Counted from the first letter of the stretch, positions 4,867 through 5,617 are shown. The stretch is 64,000 nucleotides of DNA from GCA_000165345.1 CM000434.1:896001-960000; one strand, 5' to 3'. Notes: generated from the sequence alone by a model not told the origin. Program-made: numbers and translations.

Positions 4867-5617
4867 TTAGTTATTGAATCTTTTAAGGAGATCCTGATAG
4901 TTGCATTTATAAGTTTTTGCTCCTATCTCTCGATTAACTTTATTGTGAAATTCACAAAGCCATATAACAAAGTCTTTTCTATCATTTAAACTTTTCGATT
5001 AAGAGTTAAATAATAAATATTAATATACTTAGAGAAATATAGAAGATTAGGCTTGAATAACTTACGTTGGTGGACTTTCTTCGAGGATTTTTTTCATTCC
5101 ATCTCTACAAACTTTGCATGGGTAAAGATTAGAGAAATCGTATATCCAGTTTTGGTATCTCTAAGAATGAGGATTTTATTAAAAGTATATTAAATTGATA
5201 TAATAATCAAAAAGGCTCAATTTATTCGTACCTGTTTATCATGATTGCTAGGATTTTCTGGGTACTTATTTGCCATATTATGTAACTAAAATGATTGTAA
5301 AAAATGATAGAATAATAAATTTATTTTTTCAAGATAAGAATAGATCAATCTTTATCTTGAGATTTTGTTAATTGACTTACATATAACCAAGTAGCTGCTC
5401 CAATCTCTCTCAAGTTTGGAGGTTTACCATTTCTTCCTTTTAGTTCTGCTTTATTCCTGACATCGATCTACTCAAAAAAGAATTAAGTAAGTTAATTGAG
5501 ACGAATTGCAGTAAACTTTTTCATAGATCAAGTTAATCTTTATTATTGACTTACAAATTCATCATTACAACTTTCCTCCACACATTGCTTATCTAGTTTC
5601 TTCCCAAACAGAAACAT
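4867..5617 (-). CDS. ERV1: Erv1/ALR-family FAD-linked sulfhydryl oxidase, five exons. Not in the ORF track. Minus-strand exons: 5555-5617, 5381-5467, 5232-5285, 5066-5160, 4867-4978.
   Basis: Hand-spliced from the minus strand. Donors: GTAAGT (5549-5554), GTAAGT (5375-5380), GTACGA (5226-5231), GTAAGT (5060-5065). Acceptors: TAG at 5468-5470, TAG at 5286-5288, TAG at 5161-5163, TAG at 4979-4981. Introns are 87, 95, 71 and 87 nt, all AT-rich, with phases consistent. Product (136 aa): MFLFGKKLDKQCVEESCNDEF|IDVRNKAELKGRNGKPPNLREIGAATWLY|LHNMANKYPENPSNHDKQ|RYQNWIYDFSNLYPCKVCRDGMKKILEESPP|TKDFVIWLCEFHNKVNREIGAKTYKCNYQDLLKRFNN*. This matches the Erv1/ALR core (TW.LH..A..YP..P, FS..YPC..C, WLCH.HN.VN..LGK..F.C). 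Confidence 0.7.

What the first reader, a model, noticed from the sequence alone, without database searches (positions are those of the whole stretch)
4867..5617. Five-exon Erv1/ALR sulfhydryl oxidase gene invisible to ORF scanning
An ORF-free 750-bp stretch on the minus strand splices cleanly into a 136-aa protein. Three donors are GTAAGT and one is GTACGA. All four acceptors are TAG. The four AT-rich introns are 87, 95, 71 and 87 nt, and all phases are consistent. The product carries the Erv1/ALR signatures: ...REIGAATWLYLHNMANKYPENP...FSNLYPCKVC...WLCEFHNKVNREIGAKTYKCNY. Four introns in under 0.8 kb is striking in a genome where every other gene here has at most one. Its stop (4867-4869) lies 7 bp from the ISWI stop (4859). 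The gene encodes a disulfide-relay/FAD oxidase of interest for organisms with reduced mitochondria.
Basis: partly seen in the sequence, partly recalled or inferred. Interest (0 to 1): 0.7.

Follow-up and report, generated by a model that had tools for sequence, protein, structure and literature searches.

The report
Annotated five-exon Cryptosporidium Erv oxidase gene
A small four-intron gene on Cryptosporidium parvum chromosome 6 encodes an ordinary Erv1/ALR-type disulfide-forming flavoenzyme; it is real and already in the curated reference annotation (as 140 aa, not 136), although several other genome annotations still miss or garble it.

Summary
The window is Cryptosporidium parvum chromosome 6. 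One junction is wrong. Intron 4 most likely ends at the AAG acceptor 12 nt upstream, so exon 5 is 4990-4867 and intron 4 is 75 nt. The protein is then 140 aa with PPT-LNDR-KDF. This version scores 91.6 bits and aligns without gaps to rat ALR. The 12 nt evolve like coding sequence in six species, and C. muris has the same exon structure. The 140-aa protein is identical to GenBank QOY41273.1 (CPATCC_002950, "ERV/ALR sulfhydryl oxidase domain containing protein"), so the gene is already known. All four intron positions and phases are conserved across the genus. The protein has a proximal CxxC, a structural CX16C and an N-terminal CX4C as described for Plasmodium PfErv. It has no signal peptide. 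The claim that every other gene here has at most one intron is not accurate, because two need two. Some interest remains. Two C. parvum GenBank records lack the gene, several orthologue models are wrong, and a 2011 table lists Erv1 as absent from C. parvum. Localisation and electron acceptor are untested.

The parts
5555..5617 (-). Exon 1 (63 nt). Start codon at 5617-5615. Encodes MFLFGKKLDKQCVEESCNDEF, which includes the distal C12-x4-C17 motif.
   Evidence: The N-terminus and the CX4C are conserved in all Cryptosporidium orthologues, including C. muris. C. muris exon 1 is also 63 nt.
5468..5554 (-). Intron 1 (87 nt, GTAAGT...TAG, phase 0). Contains a conserved TCAATTAACTTA block, possibly the branch site.
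   Evidence: Length varies from 79 to 88 nt between species in steps that are not multiples of three.
5381..5467 (-). Exon 2 (87 nt). Encodes the flexible arm and the start of helix 1 (...PPNLREIGAATWLY).
   Evidence: C. muris exon 2 is also 87 nt.
5286..5380 (-). Intron 2 (95 nt, GTAAGT...TAG, phase 0).
5232..5285 (-). Exon 3 (54 nt): LHNMANKYPENPSNHDKQ.
5161..5231 (-). Intron 3 (71 nt, non-consensus donor GTACGA...TAG, phase 0).
   Evidence: The donor is GTACGA, GTATAA, GTATGG or GTGAGA in the orthologues.
5066..5160 (-). Exon 4 (95 nt). Encodes the proximal active-site C83-K-V-C86 within YPCKVC.
   Evidence: (C83 and C86 are nearly invariant alignment columns).
4991..5065 (-). Intron 4 as corrected (75 nt, GTAAGT...AAG, phase 2).
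   Evidence: the AG at 4992-4991 is conserved in all six species; the C. muris acceptor sits at the equivalent position.
4867..4990 (-). Exon 5 as corrected (124 nt). Contains the structural C112-x16-C129 pair and the HNKVN FAD-contact motif. Stop codon at 4869-4867.
   Evidence: 91.6 vs 81.0 bits; gapless alignment to rat ALR; PP-x-L-x-x-R conserved in a gregarine and Babesia.
4860..4866 (.). 7-bp gap between the two convergent stop codons, so the 3' UTRs of the Erv and SNF2/ISWI genes must overlap.
1551..4859 (+). Convergent neighbour: a 1102-aa SNF2/ISWI-type helicase (CPATCC_002949). This gene identifies the window as C. parvum.
   Evidence: exact match to CAD98428.1, EAZ51536.1 and QOY41272.1.
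5589..5627 (-). Out-of-frame upstream ATG (5627-5625) opening a 12-codon uORF (MFLYVSVWEETR*) that overlaps the Erv start codon.
   Evidence: The ATG is conserved in 5 of the 6 species aligned. The transcription start is unknown, so its relevance is untested.

Best explanation
This is the Cryptosporidium parvum chromosome 6 gene CPATCC_002950. It has five exons and four introns and encodes a 140-aa single-domain FAD-dependent sulfhydryl oxidase of the Erv1/ALR family, with the cysteine layout described for Plasmodium PfErv.

Shown here:
- The gene structure and its conservation across the genus.
- Family membership, by sequence and by predicted fold.
- The three cysteine motifs: distal N-terminal C12-x4-C17, proximal C83-x2-C86, structural C112-x16-C129.
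- The absence of any signal peptide, membrane anchor or basic presequence.

Inferred from the established mechanism of Erv1/ALR enzymes:
- The protein forms a head-to-tail homodimer of four-helix bundles, each binding FAD.
- Substrate thiols reduce the distal disulfide on the flexible N-terminal arm.
- That disulfide passes electrons to the proximal CxxC next to the flavin of the partner subunit, then to FAD, then to a terminal acceptor.
- C. parvum has lost respiratory complexes III and IV, and SAR lineages (the supergroup that includes apicomplexans) lack Mia40. The acceptor is therefore most likely O2, giving H2O2, and substrates are probably oxidised directly.
- The most likely site is the intermembrane space of the mitosome. 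The single small Tim and/or the Atm1-linked Fe-S export route are candidate clients.

The confidence value applies to gene identity and enzyme class. Mitosomal localisation alone I would put near 0.5.
For: Identity:
- The ISWI neighbour is an exact match to C. parvum proteins, and the 140-aa spliced product equals QOY41273.1/WRK32993.1.

Family:
- PF04777 scores 91.6 bits against a 27.6-bit cut-off.
- Rat ALR matches at E=1.2e-22 with a gapless alignment over 109 residues.
- The AF2 model has pLDDT 86 and pTM 0.81. Foldseek ranks ALR 1oqc and Erv1 3w4y first at rmsd 1.5 A.
- G44, W48, H52, P82 and H115 are invariant, and Y81, C83, C86, C112, N116, V118, N119 and C129 nearly invariant, in a 50-sequence alignment.

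Gene structure:
- GT/AG is conserved at all four introns in six species.
- Exon identity exceeds intron identity in every pair, for example 0.70 vs 0.44 for C. canis.
- Intron lengths differ by amounts that are not multiples of three, and third-codon-position changes dominate (71 of 126 for C. canis).
- C. muris has exons of 63/87/54/95/121 nt with identical phases.
- Synteny Mito_carr - Erv - SNF2 is conserved.
- The CpIA annotation's introns are stated to be 100% supported by RNA-seq (PMC8744675).

Architecture:
- An N-terminal CX4C shuttle is described for PfErv (PMC4019985). The same motif occurs in the gregarine and Babesia homologues.
- Maximum Kyte-Doolittle(15) hydropathy is 0.23, and the first 30 residues are net acidic.

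Context:
- C. parvum lost complexes II-IV and keeps AOX (PMC5146892).
- Mia40 is absent from apicomplexans and SAR (PMC5760468; PMC4802753).
Against: - No transcript, proteomic, localisation or enzymatic data for this protein were accessible. No paper in the held library treats Cryptosporidium Erv.
- The RNA-seq support is a general statement about the annotation, not a junction-level check of this gene.
- The FAD, dimer and electron-path steps are transferred from yeast, mammalian and Leishmania enzymes.
- The E. cuniculi 'Erv1' was later re-read as an ER Erv2 (PMC5216125). This shows that family membership alone does not fix the compartment.
- The absence of a cytochrome c gene in C. parvum was not checked directly; only the loss of complexes III and IV is cited.
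Confidence: 0.9

Rival explanations
1. The reader's 136-aa product is the true, or a co-existing, isoform. In this reading the downstream TAG (exon 5 starting at 4978) is used instead of, or alongside, the upstream AAG. The two acceptors are 12 nt apart and both keep the frame.
For: - Both acceptors keep the reading frame.
- The upstream acceptor, CGAAAAG, has a poor pyrimidine tract in C. parvum.
- The C. tyzzeri GenBank model TRY51118.1 uses the downstream acceptor.
Against: - The 12 nt carry no indels in six species. Four of the five substitutions fall at third codon positions of the LNDR frame.
- In C. canis the surrounding intron is unalignable, yet the 12 nt stay 10/12 identical and follow a strong TCTCAG acceptor.
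- The C. muris exon 5 includes the equivalent RLSNR.
- Transcript-derived Digyalum, and also Babesia, keep PP-x-L-x-x-R.
- Pfam falls from 91.6 to 81.0 bits and the ALR alignment acquires two gaps without these residues.
- The C. tyzzeri model is otherwise defective, being N-terminally truncated to 87 aa.
Confidence: 0.08
2. The protein is an Erv2-like oxidase of the ER or secretory pathway rather than a mitosomal Erv1/ALR orthologue, as was argued for the Encephalitozoon 'Erv1'.
For: - The microsporidian precedent (PMC5216125).
- The Erv2 core superposes almost as well structurally, at rmsd 1.1-1.2 A.
- Cryptosporidium secretes many disulfide-rich proteins (own knowledge).
Against: - There is no signal peptide or membrane anchor: maximum hydropathy over 15 residues is 0.23.
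- There is no C-terminal CxC. The distal pair is N-terminal CX4C, as in PfErv.
- Sequence scores are higher to ALR and Erv1 (78-84 bits) than to Erv2 (59.8 bits).
- QSOX sequences are reported in Cryptosporidium for the secretory route (PMC3616962).
- The closest non-Cryptosporidium relatives are gregarine and piroplasm Erv proteins.
Confidence: 0.07
3. The protein acts in the cytosol or nucleus, like the short form of mammalian ALR, and has no mitosomal role.
For: - There is no recognisable presequence.
- Heterologous human ALR stayed in the yeast cytosol unless given a targeting signal (PMC5760468).
Against: - Erv1/ALR proteins generally lack presequences and still reach the intermembrane space (established knowledge).
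- Retention with conserved shuttle cysteines in both mitosome-bearing and more mitochondrion-like (C. muris) species fits a conserved organellar role.
- There is no direct evidence either way.
Confidence: 0.12
4. The locus is a decaying pseudogene or a chance splice reconstruction with no function.
For: - The gene is absent from the annotation of two C. parvum GenBank records checked here (CP029785.1 and CM109966.1), and the protein clusters hold no Erv protein from the 2003/2004 C. parvum annotations.
- The gene is very short and is 44% intron.
Against: - The reading frame is intact in seven species.
- Substitutions show a third-position bias, and exons carry only 3n indels.
- Catalytic and FAD-contact residues are invariant.
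- Pfam E=4e-26.
- The curated annotation is described as evidence-based and RNA-seq supported.
Confidence: 0.01

Closest known systems
Plasmodium falciparum Erv (PfErv)
   Same: - Apicomplexan single-domain Erv in a lineage without Mia40.
- The distal (shuttle) cysteine pair is a CX4C at the N-terminus (PMC4019985; PMC5760468).
- Here the pair is C12-VEES-C17, with the same motif in the gregarine and Babesia homologues.
   Different: - Plasmodium has a full cytochrome c / complex III-IV chain to accept electrons. C. parvum has lost complexes III and IV.
- The PfErv sequence itself was not retrieved here, so the comparison rests on the published description.
Saccharomyces cerevisiae Erv1 / human ALR (GFER)
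   Same: - Same fold: rmsd 1.5-1.8 A, 31-34% identity.
- Same proximal CxxC and structural CX16C.
- N-terminal position of the distal pair.
- Gapless alignment to rat ALR over 109 residues.
   Different: - The distal motif is CX4C, not CRxC.
- The N-terminal arm is much shorter, with about 40 residues before the core.
- There is no Mia40 partner in the lineage.
- There is no cytochrome c oxidase route in C. parvum.
Saccharomyces cerevisiae Erv2 (ER lumen)
   Same: Same FAD-binding four-helix core.
   Different: Erv2 has an N-terminal membrane anchor and a C-terminal CxC shuttle. This protein has neither, and it scores lower to Erv2 (59.8 vs 78-84 bits).
Kinetoplastid Erv (LtErv / TbERV1) and plant AtErv1
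   Same: They work in lineages where Mia40 is absent (kinetoplastids) or dispensable. The catalytic core is the same.
   Different: Their shuttle cysteines are C-terminal (CX3C and CX4C). Kinetoplastid enzymes also carry an extra KISS domain. Neither feature is present here.

Membership tests
Erv1/ALR family (Pfam PF04777, FAD-linked sulfhydryl oxidases) | Significant match to the family profile, above the curated cut-off | tested here: met
   91.6 bits (140 aa) and 81.0 bits (136 aa) against a 27.6-bit cut-off.
Erv1/ALR family | Four-helix-bundle FAD-binding core fold | tested here: met
   AF2 model with pLDDT 86 has helices at 40-56, 64-80, 84-96 and 104-121, plus a short fifth helix. Foldseek to 1oqc, 3w4y and 2hj3 gives probability 1.0 and rmsd 1.5 A. 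This is a prediction, not a solved structure.
Erv1/ALR family | Proximal redox-active CxxC next to the flavin | tested here: met
   C83-K-V-C86 lies within YPCKVC and aligns to the ALR CEEC. Both columns are at least 90% conserved.
Erv1/ALR family | Structural CX16C disulfide | tested here: met
   C112 and C129 are separated by 16 residues and align to the ALR pair.
Erv1/ALR family | Conserved FAD-contact residues (W-x3-H of helix 1, YPC, H-N-x-V-N of helix 4) | tested here: met
   W48, H52 and H115 are invariant. Y81, N116, V118 and N119 are nearly invariant in the 50-sequence alignment.
Erv1/ALR family | Binds FAD and oxidises thiols, with transfer of electrons to O2 or cytochrome c | not testable with these tools
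   Needs recombinant protein.
Mitochondrial Erv1/ALR/PfErv subgroup | Distal shuttle cysteine pair on a flexible arm outside the core | tested here: met
   The N-terminal C12-x4-C17 is conserved in all Cryptosporidium orthologues, Digyalum and Babesia. The arm has lower pLDDT, 52-74. CX4C at the N-terminus is the published PfErv arrangement. Its redox role is inferred.
Mitochondrial Erv1/ALR/PfErv subgroup | Localisation in the intermembrane space of the mitochondrion or mitosome | not testable with these tools
   Only negative evidence is available: there is no signal peptide or membrane anchor.
Erv2 (ER) subgroup | N-terminal signal anchor and C-terminal CxC shuttle | tested here: not met
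   There is no hydrophobic segment (maximum KD15 0.23). No cysteine follows C129.
QSOX | Thioredoxin domain(s) fused N-terminal to the Erv domain | tested here: not met
   The protein is a 140-aa single domain with only PF04777 detected. The QSOX1 fragment is a weak structural match, E=0.08.
Poxvirus E10R-like viral Erv | Match to PF04805 | tested here: not met
   No hit for the C. parvum protein. The C. ubiquitum orthologue scores 15.7 bits, below the 27-bit cut-off.

The most novel reading that the evidence does not exclude
The Cryptosporidium Erv is a stripped-down mitosomal disulfide relay. It would operate with no Mia40, no cytochrome c oxidase branch and possibly a single client (the lone small Tim, or the Atm1-linked Fe-S export route), passing electrons straight to O2. 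If so, C. parvum would be a minimal natural system for asking what Erv does when everything else in the pathway is gone. Published tables that score Erv1 as absent from C. parvum mitosomes would need correcting. A smaller possibility is that the two in-frame acceptors 12 nt apart yield 140- and 136-aa isoforms.
Probability: 0.3. Interest if true: 0.45.

Novelty: already known. Interest (0 to 1): 0.2.

Why it matters
Mostly as a correction and a caution. The gene shows how ORF-based or purely automatic annotation loses short, intron-rich genes in an otherwise intron-poor genome.

- It is missing from two of the C. parvum chromosome 6 GenBank records examined here.
- No Erv protein from the 2003/2004 C. 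parvum annotations appears in the protein clusters.
- It is mis-modelled in at least four other species.
- At least one comparative table (PMC3044749, Table 8) scored Erv1 as absent from C. parvum.

Anyone reconstructing mitosome protein import, redox or Fe-S export in Cryptosporidium should include it. The correct 140-aa form, not the 136-aa form, should be used for expression or tagging.

Tried and rejected
- **Intron-hosted RNAs.** I asked whether they explain why four introns are retained. Rfam at E<=1 over 4500-6300 found nothing. None of the four introns folds better than shuffled controls, with z-scores from -1.15 to +1.27. By eye there are no C/D-box motifs. Rejected.
- **Direct transcript evidence.** Neither the 136-aa nor the 140-aa protein occurs in Logan or transcript-derived sources, so junction use could not be checked directly.
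- **Alternative start.** The ATG at 5627 is out of frame and stops after 12 codons. The 5617 start is conserved through to C. muris.
- **Papers not held.** Alcock et al. 2012 (the Cryptosporidium small Tim) and Eckers et al. 2013 (PfErv/LtErv) could not be read. Statements about them rest on citing papers.
- **Literature searches.** Searches for Cryptosporidium with Erv1, Mia40, sulfhydryl oxidase or Erv found no study of this protein.
- **Viral or horizontally acquired origin.** Rejected. The best non-Cryptosporidium relatives are gregarine and Babesia proteins, and synteny and introns are conserved.

Full report
**What the window is.** The 1102-aa ORF at 1551-4859 (+) is an exact match to Cryptosporidium parvum SNF2/ISWI proteins CAD98428.1, EAZ51536.1 and QOY41272.1 (CPATCC_002949). 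These lie on chromosome-sized contigs of about 1.3 Mb. The window is therefore C. parvum chromosome 6, consistent with its roughly 30% GC.

**Checking the observation.**
- Minus-strand exons are 5617-5555, 5467-5381, 5285-5232, 5160-5066 and 4978-4867.
- Introns are 87, 95, 71 and 87 nt. Donors are GTAAGT, GTAAGT, GTACGA and GTAAGT. Acceptors are all TAG. Phases are 0, 0, 0, 2.
- Introns are more AT-rich (19-25% GC) than exons (29-38%).
- No ORF of 60 aa or more exists in the stretch.
- The Erv stop (4869-4867) lies 7 bp from the ISWI stop (4857-4859).
- The product hits Pfam PF04777 (Evr1_Alr) at 81 bits, E=8.5e-23, against a 27.6-bit cut-off. It hits solved ALR/Erv1 structures at E about 1e-20.

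The thing is really there and is far beyond chance.

**The one wrong junction.** The exact 136-aa sequence is not in a 15-billion-protein collection. A 140-aa C. parvum protein is present: QOY41273.1 / CPATCC_002950 and WRK32993.1, named 'ERV/ALR sulfhydryl oxidase domain containing protein'. It differs only by PPT-LNDR-KDF instead of PPT-KDF. That corresponds to an acceptor 12 nt upstream (AAAAG|TTTAAATGATAG|AAAAGAC). Exon 5 is then 4990-4867 and intron 4 is 5065-4991 (75 nt). Five independent lines favour this form.
1. In a six-species DNA alignment the upstream AG is conserved everywhere. The 12 nt have no indels, and four of their five substitutions fall on third codon positions of the LNDR frame. 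In C. canis the surrounding intron is unalignable, yet the 12 nt are 10/12 identical and follow a good TCTCAG acceptor.
2. The annotated C. muris gene has exons of 63/87/54/95/121 nt with identical phases, and its exon 5 begins at the equivalent RLSNR.
3. More distant homologues keep PP-x-L-x-x-R. These include a transcriptome-derived gregarine sequence (Digyalum) and Babesia.
4. The Pfam score rises from 81.0 to 91.6 bits. The alignment to rat ALR becomes gapless over 109 residues, at 83.6 vs 75.7 bits.
5. The IOWA-ATCC re-annotation that produced CPATCC_002950 was manually curated. It states that its introns are 100% supported by RNA-seq (PMC8744675).

Both acceptors keep the frame, so a minor 136-aa isoform cannot be excluded without junction reads.

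**Comparative support for the whole structure.**
- All four GT...AG pairs are conserved in C. parvum, C. tyzzeri, C. meleagridis, chipmunk genotype I, C. ubiquitum and C. canis. C. muris shares them too.
- Exon identity exceeds intron identity in every comparison: 0.94 vs 0.87, 0.88 vs 0.70, 0.87 vs 0.65 and 0.70 vs 0.44.
- Intron lengths differ by amounts that are not multiples of three, whereas coding exons show only 3-nt indels.
- Substitutions concentrate at third positions, for example 71 of 126 for C. canis.
- The order Mito_carr - (540-aa gene) - Erv - SNF2 is conserved, down to C. muris without the 540-aa gene.

This is a gene under purifying selection whose four introns predate the split between gastric and intestinal Cryptosporidium.

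**The 'at most one intron elsewhere' claim.** I compared gene span with product length in three annotated C. parvum records covering the window. I then solved exhaustively for GT..AG introns. Of roughly 27 genes, four contain introns.

| Gene | Window coordinates | Introns |
|---|---|---|
| Erv | 4867-5617 (-) | four, 328 nt, 44% of the gene span |
| 913-aa gene | 17002-19872 (-) | two required: 19825-19759 and 19573-19512 |
| 375-aa gene | 21052-22284 (-) | two in the CP141123.1 model: 22225-22169 and 21992-21945 |
| 141-aa TMEM208 gene | 52006-52555 (-) | one: 52177-52054 |

The contrast is real but was overstated.

**What the protein is.**
- A search of 1.84 billion representative proteins gave 4879 hits at E<=1e-3. 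The best were Cryptosporidium orthologues, then a gregarine and Babesia.
- A 50-sequence alignment shows G44, W48, H52, P82 and H115 invariant. Y81, C83, C86, C112, N116, V118, N119 and C129 are nearly invariant. These are the W-x3-H, YPC-x2-C and C-x2-HN-x-VN...C signatures of the FAD-binding core.
- AlphaFold2 on that alignment gave pLDDT 86 and pTM 0.81, with four long helices and a short fifth.
- Foldseek placed ALR (1oqc), yeast Erv1 (3w4y) and Arabidopsis Erv1 (2hj3) on top at rmsd 1.5 A. Erv2 and viral Ervs came next, and QSOX was far behind.
- The protein has three cysteine pairs: proximal C83-KV-C86, structural C112-x16-C129, and an N-terminal C12-VEES-C17 on a lower-confidence arm.
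- The distal motif is conserved in every Cryptosporidium orthologue and in the gregarine and Babesia proteins. It matches the published description of PfErv, 'CX4C at the N-terminus' (PMC4019985).
- There is no hydrophobic segment (maximum Kyte-Doolittle over 15 residues is 0.23). The first 30 residues are net acidic. So there is no signal peptide, anchor or classical presequence.

**How it most likely works.** By the established mechanism of Erv1/ALR enzymes (summarised in PMC4019985 and PMC5760468), the protein should form a head-to-tail homodimer. The distal disulfide takes electrons from client thiols and hands them to the proximal CxxC beside the flavin of the partner subunit. FAD then passes them to an acceptor.

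In yeast and mammals the client is Mia40 and the acceptor is cytochrome c. Apicomplexans and other SAR lineages lack Mia40. [quoted passage not shown] I therefore infer direct oxidation of clients and O2 as acceptor. The mitosome intermembrane space is the most probable location.

Candidate roles are the single small Tim (PMC5584982, citing Alcock 2012) and the Atm1-linked Fe-S export route, since Atm1 is scored present in C. parvum (PMC3044749). These steps are inference; none was testable here.

**Rivals.**
- An Erv2-like ER enzyme deserves consideration, because the Encephalitozoon 'Erv1' was re-read that way (PMC5216125). Here there is no anchor and no C-terminal CxC. Scores to Erv2 are lower (59.8 vs 78-84 bits). 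QSOX is reported in Cryptosporidium for the secretory route.
- A purely cytosolic role cannot be excluded.
- A pseudogene is excluded by the conservation pattern.

**Is it new?** No. The protein is named in GenBank and UniProt for C. parvum IOWA-ATCC, C. meleagridis, C. ubiquitum, C. andersoni and C. muris. What remains untidy is the annotation record.
- Two C. parvum chromosome 6 records (CP029785.1 and CM109966.1) have no gene between the 540-aa gene and SNF2.
- No Erv protein from the 2003/2004 annotations appears in the protein clusters, although the neighbouring SNF2 protein does.
- The chipmunk genotype I model retains intron 3.
- The C. bovis and C. xiaoi models stop before exon 5.
- The C. 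canis model adds 10 residues from an upstream acceptor in intron 1.
- Table 8 of PMC3044749 (2011), built by BLAST searches, scores Erv1 as absent from C. parvum. I read this from the plain-text rendering of filled and empty circles.
- No paper in the held library studies this protein.

**Dead ends.** I asked whether the retained introns host structured RNAs. There were no Rfam hits at E<=1 and no folding beyond shuffled controls.

**Verdict.** The finding is a correct reading of a real gene with one mis-placed acceptor. The gene is an ordinary member of a well-known family and already annotated. Residual interest lies in annotation hygiene and in the untested biology of an Erv enzyme in a mitosome lacking Mia40 and the cytochrome c oxidase branch.

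Noticed in passing
window 5589-5627 (-): An out-of-frame ATG lies 10 nt upstream of the Erv start. It opens a 12-codon uORF (MFLYVSVWEETR*) that overlaps the start codon. The ATG is conserved in all species aligned except C. canis (ACG). Whether it lies in the mRNA is unknown.
   Followed up: partly
L008 (CP029785.1) and L010 (CM109966.1), locus positions 20098-21443, equivalent to window 4860-6205: Two C. 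parvum chromosome 6 GenBank records carry no gene model for Erv between the 540-aa gene and SNF2. CP141123.1 (L009) and IOWA-ATCC do carry one.
   Followed up: yes
L003 (C. canis), L006 (chipmunk genotype I), L007 (C. tyzzeri); proteins P0002, P0003, P0018, P0021: Orthologue models look wrong when judged against the genus-wide alignment. C. canis gains 10 aa (WGQVLTVAFQ) from an upstream CAG acceptor in intron 1, which places a CTAAC-like motif inside the 'exon'. Chipmunk genotype I retains intron 3 and reads out of frame. C. tyzzeri starts in exon 3. C. bovis and C. xiaoi end before exon 5.
   Followed up: partly
window 17002-19872 (-) and 21052-22284 (-): Two other genes in the window need two short introns each, all with GTAAGT donors. 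The lengths are 67+62 nt and 57+48 nt. For the 375-aa gene, other C. parvum records annotate only the 48-nt intron and a shorter protein (368 or 372 aa).
   Followed up: partly
window 8564-9523 (+) and 29762-30421 (-): A mitochondrial carrier family gene (319 aa, PF00153) lies two genes from Erv. The order carrier - Erv - SNF2 is conserved as far as C. muris. A 219-aa glutaredoxin-domain gene is also in the window. Both may be mitosome or redox related. Nothing suggests functional linkage beyond synteny.
   Followed up: no
window 5475-5500 (intron 1) and 5000-5015 (intron 4), minus strand: Conserved intronic blocks are visible: TCAATTAACTTA in intron 1, and a TAAC-containing motif 13-16 nt upstream of the corrected intron 4 acceptor. 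They look like branch sites. The first AG after the intron 4 motif is the upstream acceptor.
   Followed up: no
window 3933-26302 compared with L008, L009 and L010: The window is not base-for-base identical to any of the three C. parvum assemblies fetched over this 22-kb span. Small indels shift some gene coordinates by 1 nt. The Erv gene region itself is identical to CP141123.1.
   Followed up: partly
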